From Justusliebigvirus alia: a stretch of 64,000 nucleotides of DNA. Numbering within the stretch: position 1 is the stretch's first letter; each line of letters starts with the position of its first letter. The notes below the pieces were generated by a model. It saw only the letters and a list, made by a program, of their open reading frames with translations, was not told the origin of the DNA and made no database searches. Positions 2,684 to 54,057 of this stretch are shown here, one piece after another. The stretch lies in the sequence record OZ035799.1, one strand, 5' to 3'. The translations under genes and the position numbers were made by a program.

Positions 2684-3007
2684 ATGAAATCTGTGATCGG
2701 TGTTTATTTGGATAACTCTGATTTTTTCTATCATCGTGCGCGTTTCCTTGATGCGATTGAAATGATAGAATCAGGCTTTAAAGAGTATCGCCTTGCACAT
2801 GATGACCTGGAAGCATTACAGGGCAATAGTGTTTTTACATTGCAAGCTAAAGCACTATGCAAAAGCCGGATCGACATTGCAAGCAAAAAGATAGAACGCG
2901 GCATGTCCTGGTTGCGCACCGCAGAAATCAACATGGGGCAATGGTACGGCGAAAACTTAGAAAATAAACACACTTTTGTAAATGTAGAAAATATTAAAGA
3001 TTATTGA
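2684..3007 (+). CDS. hypothetical protein (107 aa)
   Basis: internal ATG of ORF 2624..3007 preceded by RBS AAAGGGTAAAATT. Confidence 0.55.
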   Translation: MKSVIGVYLDNSDFFYHRARFLDAIEMIESGFKEYRLAHDDLEALQGNSVFTLQAKALCKSRIDIASKKIERGMSWLRTAEINMGQWYGENLENKHTFVNVENIKDY

Positions 3008-3070
3008 TTGACAGCACACCTGATAAGTAATATATTGTATCTCATAGAGCGGGGAAATGGTTTCCCCGCC
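3008..3070 (+). promoter_or_regulatory. PeSL-like cassette (TTGACA-N17-TATATT + hairpin GCGGGGAAATGGTTTCCCCGC)
   Basis: promoter hexamers plus inverted repeat before ATG 3090. Confidence 0.65.
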
Positions 3071-3089
3071 TTAACAGAAGAGATAAGAT

Positions 3090-3374
3090 ATGAAGATCAC
3101 AAAAGCACTTTCCAACTATGCAGCACGTCGCGGCTTATGCTTAACCGTTGAAAACTTAGGGAAAGAAGATTTTTTGTGCTTTTGGGAGCTTGAGAATGAT
3201 AATGAGTGGATCTTCTCTTATTCTATCTGCAAAGATCAAAATGGTTGCTTGTTAACATGGCGAGGTAATATCTATTTACCGGAAGAAATAAAACAAGAAT
3301 TACCAGGCACGATCATGACTGAGAAACAGCTTAAGGAAGTGATCAATTTTGTAGGGCAAAACATTAAAAAATAA
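3090..3374 (+). CDS. hypothetical protein (94 aa)
   Basis: ORF with RBS AGAAGAGATAAG. Confidence 0.6.
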   Translation: MKITKALSNYAARRGLCLTVENLGKEDFLCFWELENDNEWIFSYSICKDQNGCLLTWRGNIYLPEEIKQELPGTIMTEKQLKEVINFVGQNIKK

Positions 3375-3375
3375 T

Positions 3376-3437
3376 TTGACAGTAGGCAAACAACGTAGTA
3401 AAGTTTATCACATAGGGCGGGAAATGGTTTCCCGCTC
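3376..3437 (+). promoter_or_regulatory. PeSL-like cassette (TTGACA-N17-TAAAGT + hairpin GGGCGGGAAATGGTTTCCCGC)
   Basis: promoter hexamers plus inverted repeat. Confidence 0.65.
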
Positions 3438-3458
3438 ACAACAAAAGAGAAACAAATC

Positions 3459-4418: not shown

Positions 4419-4634
4419 ATGATCACGAATAAGACAGGTAAAACGGAATTTTTACGCGGCTTGCAAATAGGTAAACCTGAGATCTGGCATTGCACTAAAA
4501 GACCACGTGACGAAATGAAAGATTTCACCGCTACTTTACAACGTGTTAAAATATCTATCACACAGAAAAAAGCCTTGTTAGTAGTAGAAAACGAGATCCC
4601 GCAAACCATTATTATTGTCGAGCGTACAGCATGA
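4419..4634 (+). CDS. hypothetical protein (about 71 aa)
   Basis: ORF track 4401..4634; start ambiguous (4401 or 4419). Confidence 0.5.
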   Translation: MITNKTGKTEFLRGLQIGKPEIWHCTKRPRDEMKDFTATLQRVKISITQKKALLVVENEIPQTIIIVERTA

Positions 4635-5017
4635 AAACTGAAATCATTAACGAAATGATCAACGGCTATAAAGAAGCCTTTATTTTTGCCGAACCAGCGA
4701 CGGATCACAATGGGGAATATATTGAGAATCTAGACGATTATGATTTTTCTCCTAGCGCCCTGAAACGTATTACCAGCGATGTGACCGCCTTTTGTAGTGC
4801 CAATGTTGCCGCTATCTCTGAGGCAATGAGCGACGGCGCAACAGCAAACCAGATCGGGAATGACTTACATTTCACCCGTAACGGTCACGGCGTAGGCTTT
4901 TGGGATCGCCCTGAAATATACACTACTAACACCGCCAACCGCCTAACAAATGCAGCTAAATTAATGCCATCGGTGCATGCTTACATTGGTGAAGATAATT
5001 TGATTTATATTGAATAA
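4631..5017 (+). CDS. hypothetical protein (128 aa)
   Basis: ORF, start overlaps upstream stop (ATGA coupling). Confidence 0.6.
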   Translation: MKTEIINEMINGYKEAFIFAEPATDHNGEYIENLDDYDFSPSALKRITSDVTAFCSANVAAISEAMSDGATANQIGNDLHFTRNGHGVGFWDRPEIYTTNTANRLTNAAKLMPSVHAYIGEDNLIYIE

Positions 5018-5022
5018 AAGTA

Positions 5023-5081
5023 TTGACACCGATCCCCAGTATGGTATTATTTACCACGTAGGCGGGAAATGGTTTCCCGCC
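5023..5081 (+). promoter_or_regulatory. PeSL-like cassette (TTGACA-N17-ATTATT + hairpin GGCGGGAAATGGTTTCCCGCC)
   Basis: promoter hexamers plus inverted repeat. Confidence 0.65.
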
Positions 5082-5104
5082 AGGTAATCAAAAAGGTAAA
5101 TACT

Positions 5105-5494
5105 ATGCGCAACCTGGTTTCTGTTTCTAACGTTGAAAAATTCCAATCTTTACAGGGTATCGTTAACAACGTAGCGCCTTTTTTAGTCAATGGCTTGATT
5201 GCAAAGATGAAGAATAAACATCATGCCGCATGGTCTGCTTACTGCTTTGACAATGATGAAAAAGCGGCTGAAATGATGTTAAATATGCTGTTAGACAGTG
5301 TAGAATCATCTTTACCGGAAAACATCGCAGAAGAGATCACCTATCGTTATAATATGGCGATCACTTACCAGGAGGTTGCGCAATTTAATATGATGGATGA
5401 TGACGAACAACAGGATCAGGAAATTTTCTGGGAGTATGCTGATCGCCAATCGGCTTTTGATGAAAAATTAGCGATGTATTATAATGAATATTAA
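5105..5494 (+). CDS. hypothetical protein (129 aa)
   Basis: ORF track start 5069 lies inside the hairpin; ATG at 5105 has RBS AAAAGGTAAAT. Confidence 0.6.
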   Translation: MRNLVSVSNVEKFQSLQGIVNNVAPFLVNGLIAKMKNKHHAAWSAYCFDNDEKAAEMMLNMLLDSVESSLPENIAEEITYRYNMAITYQEVAQFNMMDDDEQQDQEIFWEYADRQSAFDEKLAMYYNEY

Positions 5495-5510
5495 TACACG
5501 GTAAAAGAAA

Positions 5511-5536
5511 GGGGCGCACTAAGCGCCCTTTTTTGT
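5511..5536 (+). terminator. rho-independent terminator (GGGGCGC-ACTAA-GCGCCCC + T6)
   Basis: GC hairpin plus TTTTTT. Confidence 0.75.
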
Positions 5537-5957
5537 ATTCTTTTTTCACAATGGAAGCGACACGTAAAGAATAGGCGTAAAGGTGGCGTAAAACCATCTA
5601 AAACCGACTGTAACCGCTTAAACAAGGTAGGAATGATTAATCACCTTACCAGGATGAAAAAGCCGTTATAAAGCTATCTAGAGCGTTTAAAGCACATAGG
5701 AAATAATTTGCTTTTTATCTTGCCTTTTATTCTGCTTTTGATTATTATTATGGAACGGGCGGCACCTGGGGACAGGGGGAAGATAATCACCGGACGACCC
5801 CGCTATATATTGATAGCTAACATCTATCAAACAACAAAACATCAAAGAAATAAACTATCAAATCTTTACAATCTCATCTATTGACCGATAAATCATAGCA
5901 GTTTAATATTGTTTTTAGAGGGTAGAACATACCCAAAACGAAAACAGGAAAAAGAAA

Positions 5958-6194
5958 ATGAAAGAAGTCATGATCCTCAAAAAATCACCTATTTTACGTG
6001 GTGGCTTTATCGCTTACTCTGATGATCTGTTAATTGCAACGGTTGCAAAAATACTAAAATCAGAAGAGGATAGTAAAAACGGCGTTTATCGTATCTGTTT
6101 CACCCGTGGGAAATTGCAAGGCAAGATCGCCTATGCTTTTGATTTACAAGATGTAAATGATAAAATCTGCGCTGTTATTGATTATGCAAAATAA
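5958..6194 (+). CDS. hypothetical protein (78 aa)
   Basis: ORF with RBS ACAGGAAAAAG; promoter-like TTGACC ... TAATAT upstream. Confidence 0.6.
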   Translation: MKEVMILKKSPILRGGFIAYSDDLLIATVAKILKSEEDSKNGVYRICFTRGKLQGKIAYAFDLQDVNDKICAVIDYAK

Positions 6195-20067: not shown

Positions 20068-20148
20068 ATGACTTTATTAGAGAGTATTGTAGTGTTAATC
20101 ATCTTTATCGTTGTTGTCATAGGATATTTTACAGAAGACTAAAATAAA

Positions 20149-20179
20149 GCCCCTAGAAGCGATTCTAGGGGCTTTTGTT
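20149..20179. terminator. bidirectional terminator hairpin (GCCCCTAG-N7-CTAGGGGC + T-run) between convergent blocks
   Basis: 8-bp stem flanked by A-run and T-run. Confidence 0.7.
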
Positions 20180-20242: not shown

Positions 20243-20500
20243 TTAAGAATGCATAAAATCTTCTTCAGGGCAGGTTGAGAGATAAGAGATGCACGTTGGG
20301 ACAACAACAACATTATCTTTAAGGTTTGCAACCAAGCCTTTTGTAATTCCAGCCACTGCCCCGTTAATATCTGCTTGACGGATACCAAAACCTTGTTGTG
20401 CGGATAGATAACAAAATCCCTCACCTTTCTGTTGATTATTATTGAAGTAATAAACGTAGTGCATCATAAAATGGTCTTTAACGATTTGTTCTGTGGTCAT
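20243..20500 (-). CDS. hypothetical protein (85 aa)
   Basis: minus-strand ORF with RBS AGGAGAATATT. Confidence 0.55.
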   Translation of the reverse strand: MTTEQIVKDHFMMHYVYYFNNNQQKGEGFCYLSAQQGFGIRQADINGAVAGITKGLVANLKDNVVVVPTCISYLSTCPEEDFMHS

Positions 20501-20513
20501 AATATTCTCCTAT

Positions 20514-20536
20514 AAGAAAAGGGGCTTTCGCCCCTT
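20514..20536 (-). terminator. terminator hairpin GGGGCTTTCGCCCC (recurrent motif)
   Basis: identical hairpin also at 31806 and 44892. Confidence 0.6.
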
Positions 20537-20543
20537 GGTCAAG

Positions 20544-21356
20544 TTACTTAGTCAAATGATCTTCTATCATTTTTATGAAAGCAGGATTGCTAAAAGCATC
20601 TGCTGCCTTTTCTCTATAAACAAAGACTCCTCTATCTTCGTAAAGAAGAGTTTCTTCGTAATTAATTCCTGGGTTAACAACAATCATTTTTGTACCCATA
20701 CTAAGTGCAGGGAATAATTCCCAATTAAAATTGATAACTTGGTTTGAACATCCTACTACAACAACCAAATCTTGCATGGTCAAAGTATCAAACAAGTGAG
20801 CCATATCTGCATACAAAGGTGCAGCCTCACCAAAAAATACAACATTAGGCTTCACCCAATTATAATCATCTATGTTTATACTATTGTAACCAATGTCTAC
20901 CAGTGTTTTGTAATCTCCAGGATGCATACGGTAAACTACTTCAGGAAGATACCCGTGCACGTGAATAACAGAATCCCTGTCCACACCTGCTCGCTCTAGT
21001 AGATCATCAACGTTTGTTGTCAAGTTTACTACTTGGTTAGGATATTCCTTAAACCACTTTGCTATTTGAATATGTGCAGCATTAGGTTGTACATCTTTAA
21101 GCTCAACACGTCTTTTGTTATAAAATTCGTGTGTTTTGGCATACAAGTCCATACCGTTCTCGTCTACACCACCGACCACTGGAAGATCTGGTGATGTTCT
21201 CACACGATAACCTGCTTGGAAAGCTCCAATATCGCAGATCTCTTCTAAATCCCATTCTTCCCATAAGGCACGACCACTATCTGTGTCTGTTCGGAATGTT
21301 CGAATCCCACTGTCTGCACTTAAACCAGCTCCACTAACAAAAATTACTCTTCGCAT
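20544..21356 (-). CDS. Sir2-family (sirtuin-like) NAD-dependent protein lacking the zinc-ribbon module
   Basis: motifs GAGLSADSGIRTFR, QPNAAH, TTNVDDLLERAG, HVHG, VVFFGE; no CxxC pairs. Confidence 0.75.
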   Translation of the reverse strand: MRRVIFVSGAGLSADSGIRTFRTDTDSGRALWEEWDLEEICDIGAFQAGYRVRTSPDLPVVGGVDENGMDLYAKTHEFYNKRRVELKDVQPNAAHIQIAKWFKEYPNQVVNLTTNVDDLLERAGVDRDSVIHVHGYLPEVVYRMHPGDYKTLVDIGYNSINIDDYNWVKPNVVFFGEAAPLYADMAHLFDTLTMQDLVVVVGCSNQVINFNWELFPALSMGTKMIVVNPGINYEETLLYEDRGVFVYREKAADAFSNPAFIKMIEDHLTK

Positions 21357-21913
21357 TCAATATCCTCTTCGTAATCATCATCCCAAGAAGATGCATCGTA
21401 ACGCTCTTCCTCTTCGAAATCCCAATTAATTTCTACTCCAAAATCTAAAAACAATTTAACAATGTTTTCTGTAGAATAGTATTTATCATAAGCGTTAGCT
21501 AGTTCCCAATACTTGTCACTCAATTTTTTATAAGTAGGATCATTATAGTCATAATCTACTTTATAACCATAGTCATACATCTCTTGTTCAGCTTTAAGCA
21601 TAGCTTCTGGTGTAAGAAGATTAGGGAACGGACGATTTCTTTCTTTTAACTTAGAAGCGATCCAGTTTGCAACATTCACCACTTCACCATCTCGATTATC
21701 ACCTAAACAACTTGCATAATCTCCATCTTCGTAAGTGCCTAAATCCCCACTAACTTCATGTACAATAGACGAATACGATCCACACGTTTCACAATCTGAA
21801 AAAGTGTCTACTGTTGTAATATCAACAGATAAAACTGGTAAAGCCATAGCTTCTTTCACACAAGCCTCCTCATATAATAACATGTCATCAAAACCCATAT
21901 ATCCTCCAGACAA
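21344..21913 (-). CDS. acidic hypothetical protein (189 aa)
   Basis: ORF overlapping Sir2 start; D/E/Y-rich. Confidence 0.55.
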   Translation of the reverse strand: MSGGYMGFDDMLLYEEACVKEAMALPVLSVDITTVDTFSDCETCGSYSSIVHEVSGDLGTYEDGDYASCLGDNRDGEVVNVANWIASKLKERNRPFPNLLTPEAMLKAEQEMYDYGYKVDYDYNDPTYKKLSDKYWELANAYDKYYSTENIVKLFLDFGVEINWDFEEEERYDASSWDDDYEEDIECEE

Positions 21914-21953
21914 ATAAAGCCCCTGCTTGGGGGCTTTGGTTAAGTTTTACGGA

Positions 21954-22562
21954 TTATACCAGACTTTTAAGGTACTTGTCAAGGGCTTCTTGATCACCTT
22001 GACAAACATAGCAACGGAAGTCTTGAGCAGAAGGTTCTTTGTCTTCGTCCCAATCCCAATAGACAGTACCTTTATAGCGTGAACCTGGGAACTCGAAATA
22101 TGCTGTATGAGTAATATGATGTGGGCCACCCCAAAACTGTGTAAAAGTAAATTGAGGATACGCTGCTTTAACTGTATTTTCAAACCAAGTTTTACGATCT
22201 AATGCTTCGTTTATAAAATAAGCATGGCGTTCCATTTCATCCCAGTTTTTCCAAACGCATTTTTCATCCAGAGAAAAAACAAAATCTTCACTGTTGAATT
22301 CATCTGTATCTTCCAAAATATCATAATCATGTGCACTAGGTATCCACCATCCAGCTTCTAGTAGTGCTTTCACGGGTACAAAACCTTTTTCAGCATATTG
22401 ATCAAATTCTTTTACTCTACGTACAGTGCAGTATTCATCTTCACCACCAATGTCCAGTAGACAAGCACCTTTGCGTCTTGCTGCAAGACCATGTGTATCA
22501 AAAACTACAACACTACCTTCACCGTCTTCACGATCTACTTGATATGCAACTTTTTGAGTCAT
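21954..22562 (-). CDS. hypothetical protein (202 aa)
   Basis: long ORF, no motif recognised. Confidence 0.6.
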   Translation of the reverse strand: MTQKVAYQVDREDGEGSVVVFDTHGLAARRKGACLLDIGGEDEYCTVRRVKEFDQYAEKGFVPVKALLEAGWWIPSAHDYDILEDTDEFNSEDFVFSLDEKCVWKNWDEMERHAYFINEALDRKTWFENTVKAAYPQFTFTQFWGGPHHITHTAYFEFPGSRYKGTVYWDWDEDKEPSAQDFRCYVCQGDQEALDKYLKSLV

Positions 22563-22685: not shown

Positions 22686-23675
22686 CTATTCCTCCATACA
22701 TTTAAGAATATGTGCAATGACAGGTATAGTCCAACCGTTACCTAACATCTTATATGCTTGTGTATTACTACTCACTTTAAAGTAGTCATCTGGCACACCT
22801 TGCAAACGGCAACACTCTTTAACGGTTAACTTTCTATAATGTACGCCTTCACTCAATTTTTCAAAAGCATCTAAATATCTTCCAGGTGGAATGTAAGCTA
22901 ATAGTACGTCTTTCGGCACAGTCGTGAGGCAACGAGTTTTTTCACTGTCCTGAACTTCCAAACAATGTACCAAACGATCAGTTTTAGATGTACTACGTTT
23001 GCCATTTTCATTAATTCTACGCCCATATATTGCTGCTGGATAAAAAACCAGTTGTCTGCGACTCTTTTCAAAATACTGTTCTATATTACCACCTTTGGCA
23101 TAATTTGCATCTATGCAATAAGCCTTATCTCTGTCTACAATACTATCATCTTCAATGATATCTTGCAACACTTCATTGGTAATATCCCAGGGTTTTATTT
23201 CCCAGTTGCACCAGTATAAACGTTGTCTATTCTGTGCCGTGAAATCTGCGGAGTTAATGAATACGGGATCAACACCTAAGTAACTTGTGATCACGTTTTC
23301 CCACTCCACTTTCATCTTAACGTTTTCGAGCATGAACTTAACATTAGGGTTAAACTTTTTAATATGTTCAAGAATCTCAACATATTCGAAGAATAGCTTA
23401 GATCGCGGATCTTGAAAGTTCAAACCCTTACCAGAAGAAGAGAAGCCTTGACACGGACTACCACCTAACAAAAGATCAATTTCTCCCCACGGAATATCCC
23501 ATTCTCTCCATTTTGTAACATCGCCTAACTGAATAATATCTGGAAAATTTGCTTGGCTTTCAGCTATGGCGAATTTGTCTAATTCTGAAGCATAATATGT
23601 ATCTACTTCAATACCTGCACTTTTTAGCGCAAGCATTCCTCCTGACATACCATCAAAAAGACTTAAAACTTTCAT
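22686..23675 (-). CDS. DNA cytosine-5 methyltransferase
   Basis: motif I FDGMSGG, motif IV GSPCQGFS, motif VI ENV. Confidence 0.8.
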   Translation of the reverse strand: MKVLSLFDGMSGGMLALKSAGIEVDTYYASELDKFAIAESQANFPDIIQLGDVTKWREWDIPWGEIDLLLGGSPCQGFSSSGKGLNFQDPRSKLFFEYVEILEHIKKFNPNVKFMLENVKMKVEWENVITSYLGVDPVFINSADFTAQNRQRLYWCNWEIKPWDITNEVLQDIIEDDSIVDRDKAYCIDANYAKGGNIEQYFEKSRRQLVFYPAAIYGRRINENGKRSTSKTDRLVHCLEVQDSEKTRCLTTVPKDVLLAYIPPGRYLDAFEKLSEGVHYRKLTVKECCRLQGVPDDYFKVSSNTQAYKMLGNGWTIPVIAHILKCMEE

Positions 23676-24088
23676 TATTGCTTCTTCTCCTTAACACTAG
23701 CTGGTAATTCTGCCTTGAGGCAGAAGTTTAAACGGTAAGCCTCATTTTCATTTAAAAGTACAGATTCACACGATAACCAGAACAAGAGATCCTCAATACC
23801 AGGGCTGTTAAGCCAACAGTGCAGAAGAGAATGTTGTTCTATATCAATGTAATTTAGTAACAAGGCTTGTAAGGCGTAACTAGTTCCTGTCGTTTTTGCT
23901 TTTTCAAGGATGATATTGTGTTTACTAACAACTTTCTTCCTAAGACCAAACCATTTATTAACAACAACAGTCTCCTCTTGTAGTTGTTTTCTTATTTTCT
24001 CACATTCTTTAACTACAATCTGCATCTTATCCACTGCCGATTGAAGTTGTTCTTTTGTTGGGTTTACAAAATAATCACTATAATACAT
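23675..24088 (-). CDS. hypothetical protein (137 aa)
   Basis: ORF with RBS GAGGAG; own promoter. Confidence 0.6.
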   Translation of the reverse strand: MYYSDYFVNPTKEQLQSAVDKMQIVVKECEKIRKQLQEETVVVNKWFGLRKKVVSKHNIILEKAKTTGTSYALQALLLNYIDIEQHSLLHCWLNSPGIEDLLFWLSCESVLLNENEAYRLNFCLKAELPASVKEKKQ

Positions 24089-24114
24089 GCTAATCTCCTC
24101 TTCTGTTTTTCTGT

Positions 24115-24143
24115 AGTTTATTCGAAAAAACTGGTGTTGTCAA
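24115..24143 (-). promoter_or_regulatory. sigma70-like promoter on minus strand (TTGACA-N17-TAAACT)
   Basis: reverse-complement hexamers upstream of CDS start 24088. Confidence 0.5.
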
Positions 24144-24170
24144 CAAAAAACCCGCCGAAGCGGGTTTATA
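24144..24170 (-). terminator. rho-independent terminator (CCCGC-CGAA-GCGGG, T-run on minus strand)
   Basis: hairpin flanked by A6/T-run. Confidence 0.65.
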
Positions 24171-24428
24171 TTATTCTACAGGAACTTCTTCACCAAGAGA
24201 GACTTCTAAACGGAATGCTTTACTTTCAATACACTCACTACCTTTTAGAAAATCAAATTGCACTATAGACTGACTTAATAGGATAGATAGAATCACATCG
24301 CAATCTTCACTAGGAGCTAGATGTTTGTATTCTTCCTTCAAGGTAACATCATAAAAACATAAATCCCCTACTCCTAGTTCATCCCATCCTTCCCACGCAT
24401 CTACAAAGTTAAATTCTAAACCTTTCAT
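24171..24428 (-). CDS. hypothetical protein (85 aa)
   Basis: ORF. Confidence 0.5.
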   Translation of the reverse strand: MKGLEFNFVDAWEGWDELGVGDLCFYDVTLKEEYKHLAPSEDCDVILSILLSQSIVQFDFLKGSECIESKAFRLEVSLGEEVPVE

Positions 24429-24949
24429 ACAACCTCCTCGTAGTTGTTATTGTGTTTTACTGTCTCAACATACAATAAAGATTCCATCTGTAATACATTA
24501 CCAGAAATAATAAACCCATAGGCCATTTCAGATGTGTCTATATCATATGCCCCGTCTTCCGGTTTAGCAAAGTGTAAAACTATTTCATCTGGGTTTTCTT
24601 CATCCCATAGTTTAGAAATTTTCCGAACCAGAATGTTCGCTAAAATAGTTGACATTCGGGATAAAGCTGTATCCTCATATCTTTTAAAACCTAGCCAATA
24701 GAGGTTAAGAATTTCTACTTCTTCTTGTGTTAAGTTTTTGTCTAAAGTAATCAGATCTGTAGAGCACGGCGTTTTTGTTGAACCTACTGTTACAAAACCT
24801 GGGGTGTTATGAAAAACAATCTTAACTTTATCACGTATAAAGTTTAAACCTTGTGCCTCAACTATATATTGTATTGTAGGTACAATATCGTTTGTTACAT
24901 CAATAAAACTATCTTTAATGACGCTTATATTATTTCTGGACAAGACCAT
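24425..24949 (-). CDS. hypothetical protein (174 aa)
   Basis: ORF. Confidence 0.6.
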   Translation of the reverse strand: MVLSRNNISVIKDSFIDVTNDIVPTIQYIVEAQGLNFIRDKVKIVFHNTPGFVTVGSTKTPCSTDLITLDKNLTQEEVEILNLYWLGFKRYEDTALSRMSTILANILVRKISKLWDEENPDEIVLHFAKPEDGAYDIDTSEMAYGFIISGNVLQMESLLYVETVKHNNNYEEVV

Positions 24950-25508
24950 TCTCCTCTAAAATAGGCTTAATAAATTCGAAAATTTGTTTTTTACTTTTAC
25001 CTCGAATATTAAAACAAGGAACATTAAACTTTTTAGCCAACATCCAAGCTGTTCTTGTACCACCTAAAGGATCTCCATTTTTATCTGTATTTGCACAAGC
25101 TAAAAGAAAACAAGATGGTTTTGGATTCTCAAGATCTCTTCCAAGAACTTGGTGGATATTTCTTTGATGTAATTTTTTAGCACCTTGAGATAATCTGTCC
25201 CAAGCTGGATGCAATTCTTTTGCATATTGCAAGGTTAAAGCATAGTTTACACTATCTGGTCTATCAAGAACAATAACCTCTCCCTCTATCTCATTACCTT
25301 TAAACGAGAGCCAAGGAATGTATATTTCTTTCTTTGTATTGTTCCCACTCTCATATACCCCGCATTCAAATGCGGAATCTGCACCTTCTGCTTTACCAGA
25401 TCGCAAAATGAACCATGTAGATAACCATTTTGCAACAGATACCATAGTATCCCATTCTTCGTCTGTAATATCTCTGCTACCAACACCTGTGTAGAATAAA
25501 TCGCTCAT
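24930..25508 (-). CDS. DprA/Smf-like (SLOG-superfamily Rossmann) protein, putative
   Basis: N-terminal YTGVGSRDIT motif; start refined to MSDLFYTG with RBS AAGGAGAAAAC. Confidence 0.45.
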   Translation of the reverse strand: MSDLFYTGVGSRDITDEEWDTMVSVAKWLSTWFILRSGKAEGADSAFECGVYESGNNTKKEIYIPWLSFKGNEIEGEVIVLDRPDSVNYALTLQYAKELHPAWDRLSQGAKKLHQRNIHQVLGRDLENPKPSCFLLACANTDKNGDPLGGTRTAWMLAKKFNVPCFNIRGKSKKQIFEFIKPILEENGLVQK

Positions 25509-25518
25509 GGTTTTCTCC

Positions 25519-25839
25519 TTAACAAGTAATATTGGGAGTAACAATTGGATTAACAATTGGAGTGATAGGGTACGTAAACCAAGGGCTTCCAATTTCCCAA
25601 GGATTATAAGGTCTACGAGGATCAAATGGAGGAGTTACTTCAGGCTTTTTCCAAATCTCCGCTAGTTGTTTCTTCCATTTATCCCTTGCTGTCTCATTAT
25701 CTTCATCCAACTGTTCATCATTATCTTTTATTTCTGGTTTTGGAAATAAAAGCTCTTTGACTAACTCAACATCTTCCGTCTCAATAGTAGTTTCTTTCGT
25801 AAGTTCTCCTACTGTTTCTTTAATTGTGATTTTATACAT
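25519..25839 (-). CDS. hypothetical protein with Pro-rich C-terminus (106 aa)
   Basis: ORF. Confidence 0.5.
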   Translation of the reverse strand: MYKITIKETVGELTKETTIETEDVELVKELLFPKPEIKDNDEQLDEDNETARDKWKKQLAEIWKKPEVTPPFDPRRPYNPWEIGSPWFTYPITPIVNPIVTPNITC

Positions 25840-26585
25840 TAGTCCTCCTCTAAAGTAGAATAAAATTGTAACGTATTTGAATCATCAAAATATGCAAAGG
25901 TTAAATTACCATTGAAGCAAGATCCTGTGTCCATATATACCCTATTACTGCTAATTACAGGCTTAGGAACATAAGAATGCCCGTGAAATACATAATCTAC
26001 TCCTGAAACTCTAGGAAGAAGAATCCCTTCAAGTGCGCAATCTATCATATCACGATCCCACATTAAAGATTCTGTGAATCGAGAAACTTGCTCTTTATTC
26101 ATATTCAAACAAAATGGCAAAACTTCTGTCACTGGTAAATGTTCCAAAACTGAAGGATACCCACCGTGAATAAAGCCTAGTTTCATATTACGATAATTGA
26201 CAACAAGTACAACAGGTAAATCTTCTAGCATCAAAGCAAGAGCAGTTGCACCCTCTTCTCCACACTCGTCTAGAACTGTATGGCCTCCGTTCTGAAACCA
26301 ACATTCGTAATATCGTCTATCACCTTCTAGCAACCCTTTAATCATCATATCTTCATGATTTCCACGAATACCATAACGATTTAGCTTTCTGGTGAATTCA
26401 ACAACACAACGAAAATTCTGCTTGCCGCGATCTGTAAGATCTCCTAGAGATACAACAACATCTTGATCTCGGATACCTAAAGTATTAACACCTTTCTGGT
26501 ACAAATCAAAGCAACCATGTAAATCACCAATAATAAACAGGTCTTGATCATCTTTTACACTAATTTCTTGATATACTAACATCAA
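25839..26585 (-). CDS. Ser/Thr protein phosphatase (PPP-family metallophosphatase)
   Basis: motifs GDLHG, GDLTDRG, GNHE. Confidence 0.8.
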   Translation of the reverse strand: MMLVYQEISVKDDQDLFIIGDLHGCFDLYQKGVNTLGIRDQDVVVSLGDLTDRGKQNFRCVVEFTRKLNRYGIRGNHEDMMIKGLLEGDRRYYECWFQNGGHTVLDECGEEGATALALMLEDLPVVLVVNYRNMKLGFIHGGYPSVLEHLPVTEVLPFCLNMNKEQVSRFTESLMWDRDMIDCALEGILLPRVSGVDYVFHGHSYVPKPVISSNRVYMDTGSCFNGNLTFAYFDDSNTLQFYSTLEED

Positions 26586-26918: not shown

Positions 26919-27491
26919 TTAATGTGTTAATGAAACTGCGTAGCTAAACACAGGTTCAGATATTACATCGGCTACAGTAATAAAAACGTCTTCGTCTTGA
27001 GTTGTTTCTACACGACATACAGTTACACCATTCACCACGAATTCAACGCAATGTGGAATATCTTCACAAACGAAGGTAGTGTAAGTAACACCCAAAGCAT
27101 CATACAAAGATTTAACAGTGTTTGCAAGTGCCGCAGTTTCTTCTTTTTCTGAGACAATGAATGCTGTAACAACAAGATTGTTTGCATAGTTTAGACTGTC
27201 CTCTATAGCCAATGATTTACAAGGTAGTAATGCAAAATATTTACCTGGTTTAATCAGACCTGCTTCCCATTGATTCAAAATTGCCTGGGATGGTTTAGTA
27301 ATATAAAACAGATTTTCACTTGGGTTATCAATATTACTTCTGGCGATACAACGTGAAGGATTATTAATATCAAATACATGATCAAAATCTACACAAACAG
27401 GTAAACTGAAAGGTGTGAATTTTTTACCTAATAATCCTATGGCTGATAATATGTTTGCTGTGCTTATCTTCCCGTTAAAAGCTAAACGCAT
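26919..27491 (-). CDS. hypothetical protein (190 aa)
   Basis: ORF. Confidence 0.6.
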   Translation of the reverse strand: MRLAFNGKISTANILSAIGLLGKKFTPFSLPVCVDFDHVFDINNPSRCIARSNIDNPSENLFYITKPSQAILNQWEAGLIKPGKYFALLPCKSLAIEDSLNYANNLVVTAFIVSEKEETAALANTVKSLYDALGVTYTTFVCEDIPHCVEFVVNGVTVCRVETTQDEDVFITVADVISEPVFSYAVSLTH

Positions 27492-27715: not shown

Positions 27716-28378
27716 TTATTTAATATTCAATTTTGCACAAAGACGTTGTACCGCTTTGGCATCGAACAAACTCCCACGAATAGTTCTCTTTCCTGATTCA
27801 TTCAGATGCTTTGCAATCGTCATATATGGCGTTCTACAAGCTCTGTATGCAACTAAAGAATCTTTTAAAGAAAGCGCAAACTCTCTTGAGCGTTTTGCTT
27901 CTTCCGTTTTCGTATAATCTGTTCTTTTGTATTTAGGGTTTGCTGCACCAAGAAGCGTTCCCTTCGCTTTTGCTACCTTAAGGCTCTTCTTAACACGATC
28001 AGATATTGCACGAGCCTCTTCTTCTGCCAGAACTGCTAAAATATTTATTATCATATTTTCAGCGGAGGGCATAGTTGCAATCCGTACATTAATCATCTCT
28101 AACAAGGTTGCAACAGAAGCTGTGTTACGTCCAAGACGGTCAACCTTAGCAACAACAAGTGTAGCACCTGTTTCTTTGCAAAGATTAACAGCTTTTACAA
28201 GCTCTCTACGTTGCTTCCAATCGCCTTTACCAGAATAAAACTCTGCAAAGCTACCTACAATAGTATAATTTTCTTGTGAATCCAGGAAGCGTTGGATATC
28301 TGCTTCCTGTGATTCTATACCATACTGGTTGCCTTGTTGTTTCTTCTTAGAAAGTCGATGATACAGTACAAACTTCAT
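27716..28378 (-). CDS. small serine recombinase (resolvase/invertase family) with C-terminal HTH
   Basis: N-terminal YHRLSKKKQ...GIESQ and LVVAKVDRLGRN motifs. Confidence 0.75.
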   Translation of the reverse strand: MKFVLYHRLSKKKQQGNQYGIESQEADIQRFLDSQENYTIVGSFAEFYSGKGDWKQRRELVKAVNLCKETGATLVVAKVDRLGRNTASVATLLEMINVRIATMPSAENMIINILAVLAEEEARAISDRVKKSLKVAKAKGTLLGAANPKYKRTDYTKTEEAKRSREFALSLKDSLVAYRACRTPYMTIAKHLNESGKRTIRGSLFDAKAVQRLCAKLNIK

Positions 28379-29852: not shown

Positions 29853-30506
29853 TTAATTATCAGAGGACACTTTATCAAGTTTTTCAGAGACTGTCAATAC
29901 TTTTTCTTGTGATTCTTTCATTTCTGCTAAAATACTTTCAGCTTCATCACTATCAGGATCACCAGTCAACAGCATACTAATTAGTTGCTCCTTGCTGAAG
30001 TTCAGAATATCTTCCGCTGTTAGCTCCAGTTGTTCTTCGATCTCTTCGATAAAAGTTTCACCGCCGGAAAAAGCATCTCGTAGTTTTGCAACTTCCATCG
30101 CTTCTTCTGGAGTTGCCCCTGCATCTAAAGCTGCTAAAGCAAAATCTGCCCCACTACCAACAGCATAATAATCTTCAGTTAAAGGATATGCTCGCGTGGG
30201 ATTATTACCCTCGTGCATATAAATTTTACCGTCTGGGTGAACAACCAATGCCACAAACTCTTCATCTTCTTTATCAGGATCTGACTGGATCACCAAACCT
30301 GGGATTGTCTCTTGTGCTGCTTGGCATTGTAAGTTTTGTTCGAACCAAGAAAAGAAAGTCAGGATAGAAGACAGACGTCCTGCACCACCAACAAGGTAAT
30401 CCCCAATTTTACGCACTTTCTTGAAATTTAAAGTGTCTACACGACTACCTACTGTTACTTTACCGTCAGACAGAATTTTGTTACGTGTTGCAATAATTGT
30501 TGTCAT
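29853..30506 (-). CDS. HslV/ClpQ-like N-terminal-nucleophile peptidase (proteasome beta-subunit fold) with acidic C-terminal extension
   Basis: starts MTTIIA (Thr2 nucleophile after Met), KKVRK, AVGSGADFALAALDAG resembling HslV GSGG region. Confidence 0.7.
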   Translation of the reverse strand: MTTIIATRNKILSDGKVTVGSRVDTLNFKKVRKIGDYLVGGAGRLSSILTFFSWFEQNLQCQAAQETIPGLVIQSDPDKEDEEFVALVVHPDGKIYMHEGNNPTRAYPLTEDYYAVGSGADFALAALDAGATPEEAMEVAKLRDAFSGGETFIEEIEEQLELTAEDILNFSKEQLISMLLTGDPDSDEAESILAEMKESQEKVLTVSEKLDKVSSDN

Positions 30507-51274: not shown

Positions 51275-51679
51275 TTATTGTAGCTTAAGTGAACTGCGAA
51301 GACGTTTTTCTTGCTGATCACGAATATGTTGTGGAACCTCATGAATTGAGTCGTTACCGTGCCTATTTTCAACTACTAAAGAGATAACTTGATAACCAAA
51401 CTCTTCAGCAAGAGTTAAATAAGGTTTAAGTTCTTTCTCTGTGGTTGAAGTGTTAGAGACAATAATCTTTTTAATATTAGATGCCATAGCATCACGAACA
51501 ATACTCTGACACCATGCGTGTGCTTTACCTACATTCTCTGGCTTCCAATCGTAAACACCACTTTCTGTGTAATGATATTGATCTGCCTCACAGATAGGCC
51601 AATAACCTTCAGAAATAATTTCTGCTACTGTAGATTTACCTGCACCTGAAACACCACGTAAGATGATAAGTTGTTTCAT
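51275..51679 (-). CDS. P-loop kinase, polynucleotide 5-prime-kinase-like
   Basis: Walker A GVSGAGKST at N-terminus. Confidence 0.55.
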   Translation of the reverse strand: MKQLIILRGVSGAGKSTVAEIISEGYWPICEADQYHYTESGVYDWKPENVGKAHAWCQSIVRDAMASNIKKIIVSNTSTTEKELKPYLTLAEEFGYQVISLVVENRHGNDSIHEVPQHIRDQQEKRLRSSLKLQ

Positions 51680-52612
51680 TTAGCCTCCAAAGAAGTTTTC
51701 TATTTCTTTACGTCTCTCTTGTGGGTCGAGAGCAGCCCATTGAGCCTTCGTAAATTTATTTCGAAGCCATTCTAGCAAAGTATAATATTCTTCGTCAACA
51801 ATTTGTTTAGCATTGTTTGGGTTGTCCCAAATCATATCCCACTTCTTATTGCCACCACGCATAAGGAATTTCTTAGCAAGATAGTATGGTGACTTAATCT
51901 TTAACAGTAAGTTAAACGGATAGTTTGTTTCACGAACAACAAACCCTTCGTGTTTACAATGTTTAGACATTTCAACAACATCTGAAAATTTAATCATCGG
52001 ATAAACTTCAGGACGTTTAAACTTTGTAATAGATGCAATCCCATCAAGAACACCTTCAGGTAACATGAAACTTGTCCCATCAAGATTTTGAATTCTTGCT
52101 CCAATTAAGTATGCGCCTGGTTCTTCTTCGACAATATGTGGATCAGAAGGATCACAGATTTCAAAAAGAAAAGTTGCTTTTGCACTTTCTGTCCACTTAA
52201 TGAAATACTCTATGTCGTCACACTCGGAAACAATACGGTTCTTTGCCATAATTGCGAAATCTGATTCTAGGCTCCCTGTTGTTGATACAACAAGTTTCCC
52301 TTTGTACACACCTACAGATGCCATAAAACCGTTTACTTTACGGACAGCATCTACAATTTCGTCTGCTGGAAGATCTGTACCATTTTCAAAACGATTAAAG
52401 ATTTTAGTAAAAGGCCAAATAACAACATTGTCTTCTGAGTCAACAACCAACCCACGACAATCTAGAAGTCGTTTGTCAACGTTCCACAAATTATCCCAGA
52501 ATACATTATTTTTGTATTTAAGCACAGCAAGACCAGCATACTCTCCAGATTTAACTTCTTTTTTATGCACTAAACCTTTTGCAATCAGGTCATCACAATT
52601 GAACTTAGCCAC
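51680..52612 (-). CDS. RNA ligase-like nucleotidyltransferase (putative tRNA repair ligase)
   Basis: KxNG motif (RKVNGF); between kinase and phosphoesterase genes. Confidence 0.5.
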   Translation of the reverse strand: MAKFNCDDLIAKGLVHKKEVKSGEYAGLAVLKYKNNVFWDNLWNVDKRLLDCRGLVVDSEDNVVIWPFTKIFNRFENGTDLPADEIVDAVRKVNGFMASVGVYKGKLVVSTTGSLESDFAIMAKNRIVSECDDIEYFIKWTESAKATFLFEICDPSDPHIVEEEPGAYLIGARIQNLDGTSFMLPEGVLDGIASITKFKRPEVYPMIKFSDVVEMSKHCKHEGFVVRETNYPFNLLLKIKSPYYLAKKFLMRGGNKKWDMIWDNPNNAKQIVDEEYYTLLEWLRNKFTKAQWAALDPQERRKEIENFFGG

Positions 52613-52613
52613 C

Positions 52614-53165
52614 TTAATCTCCTTTGATTATCTTATGATGATCTACAACAATAATATCACGCTTATCCATAATAGAGATGATTTCGTCAAAATGCAAGAT
52701 TTTCCCGTGTGCATCCCAACCAACATCCAACATTTTCCCATACAAATGATCAGGGAATGATCCGTGAGAGTGTCCGTGTAGCATGATTGATCCATGCCCT
52801 TGTTTATTCCATGCAGCCATAGGGTAATGGCTTAAGACGAAGAACAGCTTCTGATATTTCACTTCGTCATAATACACAACTTCTCCATACTCTGCAAGCA
52901 CTTTTCTGTGTTTACTATAATCATGGTTCCCAACACAGTAAGTAATATCCCCTTGGAGACGGGAAGCAATCTTACGGGTATCTTCTTCAGTCCCGAAACA
53001 GAAGTCCCCAAGATGGTACATCTTTACTCCTGGTGTTGTGGCACATTTATTCCATGCTTCGATCAGTGCTTCTGTCATATGCTCCATATCTTCCCACGGG
53101 CGATATTCAGGAGCAAACTCTCGGATACGTTTGTGCATAAAATGCAAATCACTTGTAATAAACAT
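52614..53165 (-). CDS. calcineurin-like metallophosphoesterase
   Basis: motifs SDLHF, GDFCFG, GNHDY. Confidence 0.7.
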   Translation of the reverse strand: MFITSDLHFMHKRIREFAPEYRPWEDMEHMTEALIEAWNKCATTPGVKMYHLGDFCFGTEEDTRKIASRLQGDITYCVGNHDYSKHRKVLAEYGEVVYYDEVKYQKLFFVLSHYPMAAWNKQGHGSIMLHGHSHGSFPDHLYGKMLDVGWDAHGKILHFDEIISIMDKRDIIVVDHHKIIKGD

Positions 53166-53682: not shown

Positions 53683-54057
53683 TTAATAGTTAACACGTTT
53701 AATTTCAACACCATAGGATGAAATAAAATTTTCCTTAGCTAACATATATTTACTAGCAGCAGAAGGATTTGATGTATGAACATAGATAGTTTTAAGAGCA
53801 TCCCATTCACCTGCGTACAACATACATTCTACGTCTAAGAACGCATGATATCCTTCTTGATCTTCTCCAAGATCATTATCGAAGTGTATCTCTGAGATAT
53901 TATTGAAATTATCTTCATCTGAAACAAAAGATGACCAATCCCCAAAAGATTTTAACCAAATGGCATCCTCATAACCATAATCTTTAGGATCTCTTAAATC
54001 GTCTAACCAAAGAATTTTAGCCACTATCAACCCCCTTCCTGTTTCTCTTCTTTCCAA
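53683..54057 (-). CDS. hypothetical protein (124 aa)
   Basis: ORF. Confidence 0.5.
   Translation of the reverse strand: MERRETGRGLIVAKILWLDDLRDPKDYGYEDAIWLKSFGDWSSFVSDEDNFNNISEIHFDNDLGEDQEGYHAFLDVECMLYAGEWDALKTIYVHTSNPSAASKYMLAKENFISSYGVEIKRVNY

What the first reader, a model, noticed from the sequence alone, without database searches (positions are those of the whole stretch)
20544..22562. Sir2-like protein lacking the zinc-ribbon, followed by two unknown genes, in a genome that also carries an NAD+ reconstitution module
The ORF has the full set of sirtuin Rossmann motifs (GAGLSADSGIRTFR, QPNAAH, TTNVDDLLERAG, HVHG, VVFFGE) but no CxxC...CxxC zinc module. Zinc-less Sir2 domains often act as NADases or ADP-ribosyltransferases rather than deacetylases. 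A phage encoding both an NAD-consuming Sir2-type enzyme and an NAD-rebuilding pair points to deliberate manipulation of the NAD pool or ADP-ribosylation of host targets. The overlapping acidic 189-aa ORF and the 202-aa ORF downstream may be partners.
Basis: partly seen in the sequence, partly recalled or inferred. Interest (0 to 1): 0.65.

Follow-up and report, generated by a model that had tools for sequence, protein, structure and literature searches.

The report
Known zinc-free phage sirtuin gene
This is an ordinary copy of a sirtuin gene that about a thousand sequenced phages carry, already described as lacking zinc; what it does is still untested, and the two neighbouring genes are not its regular partners.

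Summary
Window 20544-21356(-) encodes a 270-aa Sir2 protein with every catalytic motif and no zinc cysteines. Two unknown ORFs lie beside it, and a NARP1 NAD+-rebuilding pair lies at 56072-58770. None of this is new. The window is Justusliebigvirus alia (phi92-like) and the gene is annotated as Sir2 in many records. It belongs to a phage-specific sirtuin clade (PHROG 2162; 982 phage records) that lacks the zinc ligands in every lineage examined. Skliros et al. 2016 reported the zinc loss and the link to phage NAD+ salvage. Iyer et al. 2022 predicted an RNA-repair role like KptA. In sequence and predicted fold the protein is closest to CobB/SIRT5 deacylases, not defence NADases, so "zinc-less means NADase" is not supported. 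In five other lineages it sits beside cyclic-phosphate or RNA-end enzymes (cREC, HAD_SAK_2, Nudix, 2H). Here that set lies about 30 kb away. NAD+-rebuilding modules are not obligatory companions: rV5-like phages have the Sir2 and none. The two unknown ORFs are lineage-restricted. The acidic one appears co-transcribed, but Sir2 alleles swap independently of it. Function remains open: KptA-like RNA 2'-phosphate removal about 0.4, protein deacylation about 0.3.

The parts
20544..21356 (-). Zinc-free sirtuin (Sir2) of the phage-specific clade, 270 aa
   Evidence: Pfam PF02146 E=2.8e-22. PHROG 2162 E=7e-104 over the full length. Best PDB sequence match is CobB 1s5p, E=6e-18. AF2 pLDDT 90.5; Foldseek top hit CobB with TM 0.86 normalised to the target. 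No Cys between H134 and E177.
21344..21898 (-). Acidic 184-aa ORF (listed as 189 aa from a TTG at 21913) with a conserved CxxC...C cluster and a disordered acidic tail; function unknown
   Evidence: PHROG 9509, no function. No Pfam, PDB, NCBIfam or PADLOC match. SD plus ATG at 21898. pI 4.05, 46 D+E against 14 K+R. AF2 pLDDT 85.6. No fold match in PDB, and BFVD returns only its own uncharacterised family.
21954..22562 (-). 202-aa ORF of unknown function (PHROG 8514)
   Evidence: 153 phage records including small Vibrio, Pseudomonas and Xanthomonas phages. 224 representative clusters and no consistent Pfam domain.
21953..21982 (-). Perfect extended sigma-70 consensus promoter (TTGACA, 18 nt, TGgTATAAT) overlapping the stop codon of the 202-aa ORF
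   Evidence: 12/12 match. It is the only exact TTGACA-N16-18-TATAAT in the 64-kb window, where 0.11 is expected. A near-consensus equivalent (TTGACA, 18 nt, TATAGT) sits at the same place in Phapecoctavirus nepoznato.
21916..21937 (-). GC-rich hairpin between the promoter and the acidic ORF's Shine-Dalgarno sequence (terminator-like, weak T tract)
   Evidence: A hairpin with a diverged sequence that can still form a stem, followed by a stronger T tract, sits at the same position in nepoznato (stem read by eye).
20519..20536 (-). Terminator-like hairpin plus T tract 8 nt after the Sir2 stop codon
56072..56965 (+). Adps-like (PRPS-fold) first enzyme of NARP1
   Evidence: PF00156 and PF14572. PRPP synthetases are the best PDB matches. 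It is adjacent to the Namat, the same Pfam pattern as the NARP1 operon of Osterman et al..
57037..58770 (+). Namat (nicotinamide ADP-ribose transferase), second enzyme of NARP1
   Evidence: PF04095. Best PDB matches 9w5x/9w5w at E=9e-118 are the published Namat structures.
53683..54057 (-). cREC (cyclic-phosphate processing receiver) domain protein. This is the usual close neighbour of this sirtuin in other lineages; here it is about 33 kb away.
   Evidence: PF20274 E=1.9e-13, 51 bits against a 27-bit cutoff. 48% identical to the cREC next to the Sir2 in rV5-like AlexBoehm.
51275..53165 (-). RNA-end repair block: P-loop kinase (51275-51679), Rnl1-type RNA ligase (51680-52612) and a probable metallophosphoesterase (52614-53165)
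   Evidence: PF13671, PF09511 and PF12850. The PF12850 match is below its cutoff (20.6 bits against 27). Annotated as PNK, RNA ligase and phosphoesterase in EmilieFrey.

Best explanation
The ORF is an orthologue of the phage-specific, zinc-independent sirtuin clade that descends from class III (CobB/SIRT5-like) sirtuins. It is probably an active NAD+-consuming transferase acting on a specific substrate, not a bulk NADase. Shown here: the NAD+-binding and catalytic residues are intact (GAGxS, FR, N115, D117, H134, FGE, N228). The three-stranded module that normally holds zinc is kept in the model, with mostly hydrophobic or aromatic residues at the former ligand positions. The anion-binding Tyr/Arg pair of class III sirtuins (Y79, R82, plus R83) is invariant in the 50-sequence alignment. 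Inferred: the substrate carries an anionic oxygen nucleophile that attacks C1'' of NAD+ and releases nicotinamide. The conserved gene neighbourhood in other lineages is the only evidence that discriminates between substrates. On that evidence I take the most likely substrate to be a phosphate on a damaged or religated RNA, as in the Tpt1/KptA reaction. A 2'-phosphate would be ADP-ribosylated. The His134-activated ribose hydroxyl would then attack the phosphorus, giving RNA with a 2'-OH and ADP-ribose 1'',2''-cyclic phosphate. That product would be cleared by cREC, 2H, Nudix or HAD enzymes. In this phage the gene has moved about 30 kb from the RNA ligase, kinase, phosphoesterase and cREC block. 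It appears to be expressed with the acidic ORF from its own strong sigma-70 promoter, which suggests transcription by host RNA polymerase. NARP1 in the same genome is an independent counter-defence module. At most it could recycle the nicotinamide and ADP-ribose by-products.
For: Identity and clade: PHROG 2162 E=7e-104; 982 phage records; all six phage lineages aligned lack the zinc cysteines. Catalytic integrity and pocket: C41, Y79, R82, R83, T114, N115, V116, D117, H134, V172, F175, E177 and N228 are 50/50 invariant, and they map onto CobB A76, Y92, R95, R96, I131, H147 and V187. Fold: pLDDT 90.5, with strands 135-143, 151-154 and 167-172 at the zinc-ribbon position. Not a defence NADase. 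RNA/ADPR-phosphate linkage reproduced here in five lineages: rV5-like has RNA ligase, cREC, Sir2; Mydo has RNA ligase, cREC, kinase, a 74-aa ORF, Sir2, DNA ligase; T5-like has Sir2 then HAD_SAK_2, E=8e-20; BF-like jumbo has 2H/Acb1-like, a small ORF, Sir2, Nudix-cREC; Turkey5 jumbo has Sir2, Nudt16-like Nudix, cREC. The same hypothesis was published from independent analysis (PMC9503650). Departures from canonical sirtuins fit a changed substrate interface: TQNID becomes TTNVD, the substrate-strand VYP becomes VIN (N in 46/50), and A76 becomes an invariant Cys. Operon.
Against: No biochemical data exist for any member of the clade. The acyl-lysine tunnel residues of CobB are largely preserved, which is what a lysine deacylase would need and an RNA 2'-phosphotransferase would not obviously need. 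An internal RNA phosphate is bulky for that tunnel. In this window the Sir2 is not next to any RNA-repair gene. T5-like phages carry the Sir2 with no detectable Rnl1 or cREC. In KVP40-like phages the two upstream ORFs tested have no recognised domain. The functions of cREC and HAD_SAK_2 are themselves predictions. Nudix neighbours would suit disposal of O-acyl-ADP-ribose from a deacylase equally well.
Confidence: 0.4

Rival explanations
1. It is a protein lysine deacylase like CobB/SIRT5, with a preference for acidic acyl groups (succinyl, malonyl). It would strip acyl marks from host or phage proteins to reprogramme metabolism or gene expression early in infection. This is the function assumed by the database annotations and by Skliros et al. 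2016.
For: The closest sequence relatives (CobB E=6e-18), NCBIfam models and structures (CobB, Sir2-Af1, SIRT5) are all deacylases. The class III YxxR motif and the hydrophobic tunnel residues are invariant. The promoter suggests host-RNAP expression, which would fit host reprogramming. Modelling by Skliros et al. reached the same view.
Against: It scores far below every CobB equivalog cutoff (105 bits against 243; 84 against 320). The peptide-binding VYP strand is changed to VIN, the conserved Gln of TQNID is lost, and there is a clade-invariant Cys in the pocket. A deacylase role does not explain the recurrent linkage to cREC, HAD_SAK_2 and 2H in five lineages. No substrate is known.
Confidence: 0.3
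2. It is an ADP-ribosyltransferase that stably modifies host proteins or nucleic acids, like T4 Alt/Mod or SirTM enzymes.
For: Sirtuin chemistry allows ADP-ribosyl transfer. An invariant pocket Cys and the altered substrate strand suggest an unusual acceptor. The promoter suggests host-RNAP expression.
Against: No adjacent Macro or other reversing enzyme, unlike SirTM systems: the neighbours have no such Pfam hit. The catalytic His that drives the second, acyl- or phosphoryl-transfer step is invariant. There is no similarity to known ADP-ribosylating sirtuins beyond the shared family fold.
Confidence: 0.12
3. It is a free NADase that, together with NARP1, deliberately reshapes the host NAD+ pool.
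For: Loss of zinc is shared with the defence SIR2 NADases (established knowledge). The phage also rebuilds NAD+. In BF-like jumbo phages the Sir2 lies about 1 kb from NMNAT and NAMPT genes.
Against: It is not related to defence SIR2: no SIR2_2 Pfam hit, no meaningful PADLOC hit, and none among the top 50 fold matches. A phage NADase would oppose its own NARP1, which works only on NAD+ breakdown products. rV5-like phages have the Sir2 with no NAD+ rebuilding genes. The substrate pocket is conserved as if for a specific co-substrate.
Confidence: 0.08

Closest known systems
Phage-specific sirtuin clade (PHROG 2162; 'T5.102-like Sir2'; Iyer, Burroughs, Anantharaman and Aravind 2022, PMC9503650; KVP40/phiSt2 Sir2/CobB of Skliros et al. 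2016, PMC5107563)
   Same: Full-length match (E=7e-104). No zinc ligands. The same clade-specific motifs (EVC[N/D]I in all lineages; GCSNxVINFNWELFP in the main clade). The same kind of host phage: large virulent phages rich in tRNA genes. An identical protein is already deposited (ECGD1, 100% identity) and annotated as Sir2-like.
   Different: In phi92-like phages the gene is detached from the RNA ligase, cREC and kinase cluster and sits behind an acidic ORF with its own promoter. The protein carries a roughly 20-26-residue insertion (about residues 47-72) that 30 of 50 aligned relatives share and 20 lack.
E. coli/Salmonella CobB and human SIRT5 (class III sirtuin deacylases)
   Same: Best sequence and structure match. 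GAGxS, GIRTFR, N/D, HG and FGE motifs. The YxxR anion pocket. A small-domain segment of similar length.
   Different: About 25% identity. All zinc cysteines replaced or deleted. TQNID becomes TTNVD, VYP becomes VIN, A76 becomes Cys. Below every NCBIfam CobB cutoff. Activity untested.
Tpt1/KptA RNA 2'-phosphotransferase
   Same: Proposed to work the same way: NAD+-dependent removal of an RNA 2'-phosphate through an ADP-ribosylated intermediate, yielding nicotinamide and ADPR 1'',2''-cyclic phosphate. Similar gene company (cREC, 2H, RNA ligase, kinase).
   Different: Unrelated fold (ART fold against a Rossmann-type sirtuin). The resemblance is a functional hypothesis from gene context only. No homology and no assay.
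Defence-associated SIR2 NADases (ThsA, DSR1/2, SIR2-HerA, SPARSA)
   Same: Sir2 superfamily; no zinc ribbon; NAD+ as substrate.
   Different: No HMM match (PADLOC, PF13289). Not among the 50 listed fold matches. No sensor or partner domain. Encoded by a lytic phage with a conserved acceptor pocket.
NARP1 (Adps + Namat; Osterman et al. 2024)
   Same: The pair at 56072-58770 has the defining two-gene architecture, and its Namat is far closer to the Namat crystal structures than to NAMPT.
   Different: It lies 35 kb from the Sir2 on the other strand and is phylogenetically uncoupled from it. Its activity was not tested for this phage.

Membership tests
Sir2/sirtuin family (Pfam PF02146) | HMM score above the curated gathering threshold | tested here: met
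   80 bits against a 24-bit cutoff, E=2.8e-22
Sir2/sirtuin family (Pfam PF02146) | NAD+-binding and catalytic residues (GAGxS, xFR, N and D of the QNID motif, catalytic His of HG, FGE) | tested here: met
   G9-A10-G11-x-S13, F21-R22, N115, D117, H134 and F175-G176-E177 are present. All are invariant in 50 relatives except G176 (42/50).
Sir2/sirtuin family (Pfam PF02146) | Four-cysteine zinc ribbon in the small domain | tested here: not met
   No Cys between H134 and E177. CobB C155, C174 and C176 align to Y142, Y165 and W167, and C177 is deleted.
Class III sirtuin / CobB equivalog | YxxR motif that binds acidic acyl groups | tested here: met
   Y79 and R82 align to CobB Y92 and R95 and are 50/50 invariant
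Class III sirtuin / CobB equivalog | Score above the NCBIfam equivalog or subfamily cutoffs | tested here: not met
   104.6 bits against 243; 84.3 against 320; 81.8 against 318
Class III sirtuin / CobB equivalog | NAD+-dependent lysine deacylase activity | not testable with these tools
   Needs an enzyme assay. No published assay found.
Phage-specific zinc-free sirtuin clade (PHROG 2162; Iyer et al. 2022) | Full-length match to the phage family profile | tested here: met
   E=7.3e-104, residues 1-269 on profile positions 10-270 of 277
Phage-specific zinc-free sirtuin clade (PHROG 2162; Iyer et al. 2022) | Clade signature residues (pocket Cys in EVC[N/D]I; GCSNxVINFNWELFP; no zinc ligands) | tested here: met
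   C41 50/50, C203 46/50, I208 49/50, N209 46/50. C41 and the loss of zinc ligands are shared by rV5-, T5-, Mydo-, KVP40- and BF-like proteins; the GCS...VIN motif is not kept in the KVP40- and BF-like proteins.
Phage-specific zinc-free sirtuin clade (PHROG 2162; Iyer et al. 2022) | Gene neighbourhood with cREC, HAD_SAK, 2H, Nudix or RNA ligase | tested here: not met
   Immediate neighbours here are the acidic ORF, the 202-aa ORF, Dcm and an 85-aa ORF. cREC, Rnl1, a kinase and a probable phosphoesterase are present but 30-33 kb away. The neighbourhood is met in five other lineages.
Defence-type SIR2 NADases (PF13289; PADLOC models) | Match to defence SIR2 profiles | tested here: not met
   Only PF02146 in Pfam. 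The only PADLOC hit is an unrelated model at E=0.0066.
Defence-type SIR2 NADases (PF13289; PADLOC models) | Structural similarity to ThsA, DSR or SIR2-HerA rather than to deacylases | tested here: not met
   All 50 listed Foldseek PDB hits are CobB, Sir2-Af, Sir2Tm, SIRT5 or SIRT2
SirTM (macrodomain-linked ADP-ribosylating sirtuins) | Adjacent Macro-domain gene | tested here: not met
   No Macro hit in the flanking ORFs
Tpt1/KptA 2'-phosphotransferase (functional analogy only) | NAD+-dependent removal of an RNA 2'-phosphate producing ADPR 1'',2''-cyclic phosphate | not testable with these tools
   Hypothesis from gene context (PMC9503650). No homology is expected or claimed.
NARP1 (for the module at 56-59 kb) | Adjacent PRPS-like Adps and NAMPT-like Namat, with the Namat nearer to Namat than to NAMPT | tested here: met
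   PF00156/PF14572 plus PF04095, 71 nt apart. 9w5x/9w5w at E=9e-118 against NAMPT at about 1e-48.

The most novel reading that the evidence does not exclude
The zinc-free phage sirtuins, this one included, are not protein deacylases. They would be the first sirtuins to act on nucleic acid: NAD+-dependent RNA 2'-phosphotransferases, a Rossmann-fold analogue of Tpt1/KptA. They would use the class III Tyr/Arg anion pocket and a clade-invariant cysteine, and would complete a yeast-like tRNA repair pathway (kinase, cyclic phosphodiesterase/cREC, ligase, sirtuin) that lets large phages survive host tRNA nucleases. In phages such as this one, the by-products could be returned to NAD+ by NARP1.
Probability: 0.35. 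Interest if true: 0.7.

Novelty: already known. Interest (0 to 1): 0.3.

Why it matters
The finding is not a discovery. The gene is annotated, an identical protein is deposited, the family's zinc loss was reported in 2016, and its likely role was discussed in 2022. What remains important is that a sirtuin clade present in roughly 2% of sequenced phages, including T5-, rV5-, phi92- and KVP40-like phages and several jumbo phages, has never been assayed. If it is a KptA-like RNA repair enzyme, that would extend sirtuin chemistry to nucleic acids and add a counter-defence against tRNA-cleaving immunity. If it is a deacylase, it would show phages rewriting the host acyl-proteome. The residue map given here (H134, N115, C41, Y79, R82/R83) and the dispersed gene set in this phage make either hypothesis directly testable.

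Tried and rejected
(1) Acidic ORF as a paralogue of the second 'putative aaRS' ORF at 26919-27491: no similarity. The aaRS label probably rests on a sub-threshold PheRS-B1 hit (E=0.024).

(2) Acidic ORF as cREC: rejected. The real cREC is at 53683-54057.

(4) Acidic ORF supplying the missing zinc ribbon in trans: it has a conserved CxxC...C cluster. However, it is absent from most Sir2 phages, lies about 36 kb from the Sir2 in BF-like phages, and is not co-inherited with the Sir2 allele. I treat this idea as unsupported.

(5) 'The Sir2 always travels with a NARP module': this looked promising (phi92-like and Mydo NARP1; BF-like and KVP40-like NARP2; T5-like NARP3-type). It fails for rV5-like AlexBoehm, whose whole genome has none of the six query proteins.

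(6) 202-aa ORF: an exhaustive HMMER search found 224 clusters but no consistent Pfam domain.

(8) Literature searches for any assay of a phage sirtuin found none.
Full report
**Observation.** The Sir2 call is secure: Pfam PF02146 at E=2.8e-22, 80 bits against a 24-bit cutoff. All quoted motifs are present. The protein has only two cysteines, C41 and C203, neither in the HG-to-FGE segment that carries the zinc ribbon in canonical sirtuins. On the transcribed strand the order is 202-aa ORF, acidic ORF, Sir2, so the unknown genes precede the Sir2 rather than follow it.

**What the genome is.** The window is 100% identical to Justusliebigvirus alia OZ035770.1, a phi92-like E. coli myovirus, and 97-99% identical to dozens of relatives. 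In those records the gene is annotated 'Sir2-like', 'sirtuin family protein' or 'NAD-dependent deacetylase'. An identical protein is deposited for phage ECGD1.

**The zinc-free state belongs to the whole clade.** The protein matches PHROG 2162 over its full length (E=7e-104). tblastn finds it in 982 of 50,697 phage records: phi92-like, Phapecoctavirus, rV5-like, Mydo-like, T5-like, KVP40-like and several jumbo phages. In an alignment of six lineages with E. coli CobB, none has the zinc cysteines. CobB C155, C174 and C176 align to Y142, Y165 and W167, and C177 is deleted. In 50 relatives these positions are Y/V/I, Y/F and W/Y. In the KVP40-like and BF-like proteins they are Q/E, G and R/I instead. 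The AlphaFold model is confident (pLDDT 90.5, pTM 0.87). It keeps three beta-strands (135-143, 151-154, 167-172) where the zinc ribbon sits. The module is therefore retained, plausibly held by a hydrophobic core in place of the metal in the main clade.

**Which kind of sirtuin.** The nearest solved sequence is CobB (E=6e-18). The 50 listed Foldseek PDB hits are CobB (TM 0.86 on the target), Sir2-Af1/Af2, Sir2Tm, SIRT5 and SIRT2. No defence SIR2 profile matches. Catalytic and pocket residues are invariant in 50 relatives: N115, D117, H134, V116, V172, F175, E177, N228, and the class III anion-binding Y79/R82 (CobB Y92/R95) plus R83. It is still not a CobB equivalog, scoring 105 bits against a 243-bit cutoff and 84 against 320. 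It also departs from canonical sirtuins at three conserved places. TQNID becomes TTNVD. The substrate-strand VYP becomes VIN. CobB A76 in the acyl pocket becomes a Cys that is invariant in all sequences examined.

**Prior art.** Skliros et al. 2016 (PMC5107563) modelled the orthologue of Vibrio phages phiSt2/phiGrn1. They reported the absence of the zinc ligand, as in KVP40, and connected the gene to the phage NAMPT/NMNAT genes. They proposed deacetylation of host enzymes and listed T5, SPC35, GAP32, My1 and JD001 as carriers. Iyer et al. 2022 (PMC9503650) defined most viral sirtuins as a distinct clade and predicted a KptA-like role in RNA repair from three conserved neighbourhoods. I found no biochemical study of any member.

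**Comparative context, reproduced here.**

| Lineage | Gene order around the Sir2 |
|---|---|
| rV5-like AlexBoehm | RNA ligase, cREC (PF20274, E=4e-14), Sir2 |
| Mydo | RNA ligase, cREC (E=2e-17), P-loop kinase, 74-aa ORF, Sir2, DNA ligase |
| T5-like L6jm | Sir2, overlapping HAD_SAK_2 (E=8e-20) |
| BF-like jumbo | 2H/Acb1-like phosphodiesterase, small ORF, Sir2, Nudix-cREC fusion (cREC E=1e-24) |
| Turkey5 jumbo | Sir2, Nudt16-like Nudix, cREC (E=6e-23) |

This window contains the same toolkit: cREC at 53683-54057, a probable metallophosphoesterase at 52614-53165 (Pfam match below cutoff), an Rnl1 RNA ligase at 51680-52612, a kinase at 51275-51679, a DNA ligase at 49418-50581 and a MazG-like gene at 48498-49220. 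The Sir2, however, lies about 30 kb away from it. The linkage is the only evidence that discriminates between candidate substrates, and it points to phosphate or cyclic-phosphate chemistry on RNA ends or ADP-ribose derivatives.

**NAD+ rebuilding.** The pair at 56072-56965 and 57037-58770 is NARP1. It combines a PRPS-like protein with an NAPRTase-family protein whose best solved relatives are the Namat structures 9W5X/9W5W, at E=9e-118 against about 1e-48 for NAMPT (pathway). I tested whether the Sir2 and NAD+ rebuilding travel together:

| Lineage | NAD+ module |
|---|---|
| phi92-like, Mydo | NARP1 |
| BF-like | NARP2-like genes |
| KVP40-like | NARP2 |
| T5-like TrudiGerster | NadR plus PnuC, as in NARP3 |
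| rV5-like AlexBoehm (complete genome) | none of Adps, Namat, NAMPT, NMNAT, NadR, PnuC |

Conversely, NAMPT/Namat occurs in 1824 records, many of them Staphylococcus, Pseudomonas, Mycobacterium and Bacillus phages, groups that do not feature in the Sir2 result. The association is frequent but not obligatory. NARP1 is an established counter-defence that acts only on NAD+ breakdown products.

**The two unknown ORFs.**
- *Operon structure.* A perfect extended sigma-70 promoter (TTGACA, 18 nt, TGgTATAAT; 21982 to 21953) overlaps the stop of the 202-aa ORF. It is the only exact consensus in the window, where 0.11 is expected. A GC hairpin (21937-21916) follows, then a GGAGGA Shine-Dalgarno sequence and an ATG at 21898. 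The acidic ORF is therefore probably 184 aa, the length of homologue P0121. Its last codons overlap the Sir2 ATG by 13 nt. A terminator-like hairpin follows the Sir2 stop (20536-20519). The promoter, hairpin and SD arrangement recurs in Phapecoctavirus. The acidic ORF and Sir2 thus look like a two-gene unit, with the 202-aa ORF outside it.
- *Distribution.* The acidic ORF occurs in 136 phage records and the 202-aa ORF in 153, against 982 for the Sir2. The acidic-ORF homologue of BF-like jumbo phages lies about 36 kb from their Sir2. The 202-aa family extends to small Vibrio, Pseudomonas and Xanthomonas phages.
- *Family and fold.* Neither ORF has a Pfam, PDB, NCBIfam or PADLOC match. The acidic protein has pI 4.05, a conserved CxxC...C cluster and a disordered acidic tail. 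It folds confidently (pLDDT 85.6) but has no structural relative outside its own family.
- *Allele shuffling.* Phapecoctavirus ESCO37 carries a phi92-type Sir2 (96.7% identical to the window's). Its flanking Dcm, acidic ORF and downstream ORF are 97-99.6% identical to those of Phapecoctavirus nepoznato, whose own Sir2 is only 66% identical to ESCO37's. Nucleotide similarity to the window is confined to 21358-20496. In nepoznato a gene with a weak HNH match sits between the acidic ORF and the Sir2. Sir2 alleles therefore move as a cassette, independently of the acidic ORF. This argues against a co-adapted complex.

**Mechanism.**
- *Shown.* The catalytic centre is intact, the small domain is zinc-independent, the anion pocket is conserved, and the protein has no relationship to defence NADases.
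- *Inferred.* The enzyme transfers ADP-ribose from NAD+ to an anionic oxygen on a specific substrate.
- *Best explanation (0.4).* From the gene context I favour a Tpt1/KptA-like removal of RNA 2'-phosphates, with cREC, 2H, Nudix or HAD enzymes clearing ADPR cyclic phosphate.
- *Rivals.* Lysine deacylation, favoured by the preserved CobB-like tunnel, is a close rival (0.3). Stable ADP-ribosylation is at 0.12 and free NADase activity at 0.08.

**Verdict.** The feature is already known and annotated, so novelty is low. Its interest lies only in the unresolved biochemistry of a widespread phage sirtuin clade.

Noticed in passing
window 21916-21982 (-): The only perfect sigma-70 consensus promoter in the 64-kb window is followed within about 16 nt by a terminator-like GC hairpin, before the Shine-Dalgarno sequence of the acidic ORF. 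The same promoter-then-hairpin order occurs in Phapecoctavirus with a diverged hairpin sequence. Whether the hairpin attenuates transcription, terminates upstream transcripts or stabilises the mRNA 5' end is unknown.
   Followed up: partly
window 20496-21358; L018 (ESCO37) 2593-3458; L010 (nepoznato) 4477-6022: The Sir2 gene behaves as an exchangeable cassette between Justusliebigvirus and Phapecoctavirus. ESCO37 has a phi92-type allele in a Phapecoctavirus backbone. In nepoznato a gene with a weak HNH-like match is inserted next to the Sir2, and the FKP3 record annotates an HNH endonuclease at its Sir2 hit. Homing-endonuclease-driven gene conversion is a possible cause.
   Followed up: partly
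L004 (Serratia phage BF) 7001-7528: The BF homologue of the acidic ORF has an in-frame stop codon and is annotated as two CDS (34 aa and 125 aa). It may be a pseudogene, a sequencing error or a read-through.
   Followed up: no
window 24930-25625 (-) and 25839-26585 (-): Within 6 kb of the Sir2 lie a DprA-like protein (PHROG 768, E=2e-59, no Pfam hit) and a calcineurin-like phosphoesterase (PF00149) nearest to PrpA/PrpB-type Ser/Thr phosphatases. If the DprA-like protein has a SLOG fold, as I recall for DprA, both domain types would feature in NAD+/ADP-ribose conflict systems. No link to the Sir2 was tested.
   Followed up: no
window about 32.5-36 kb (-), by correspondence with EmilieFrey bas61_0211-0214: The phage carries a complete dTDP-L-rhamnose pathway (RmlA, B, C and D homologues as annotated in the BASEL record), next to glutaredoxin and ribonucleotide reductase genes.
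   Followed up: no
window 29853-30506 (-) and 27716-28378 (-): There is a proteasome/HslV-like protein (annotated 'putative proteasome component' in EmilieFrey) and a serine-recombinase-like ORF in a strictly lytic phage.
   Followed up: no
L012 (T5-like TrudiGerster) 22730-24464: This T5-like phage, which carries the same Sir2 clade, encodes NadR-like and PnuC-like genes matching the recently described NARP3 pair, and also an NAD+-dependent DNA ligase. The Sir2 clade thus co-occurs with all three NARP types in different lineages, but with none in rV5-like phages.
   Followed up: yes
window 20146-20175 and GC-skew switches near 20 kb and 56 kb: A strong bidirectional terminator marks the convergence of the plus-strand gene block (1-20 kb) and the long minus-strand block (20-55.6 kb). 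GC skew changes sign at both block boundaries.
   Followed up: no
window 20544-21356, Sir2 residues about 47-72: A roughly 20-26-residue insertion in the helical part of the small domain is modelled with high confidence (block means about 89-95). It is present in phi92-like, Phapecoctavirus and some T5-like proteins (30 of 50 aligned sequences) and absent from rV5-, Mydo-, KVP40- and BF-like ones.
   Followed up: partly
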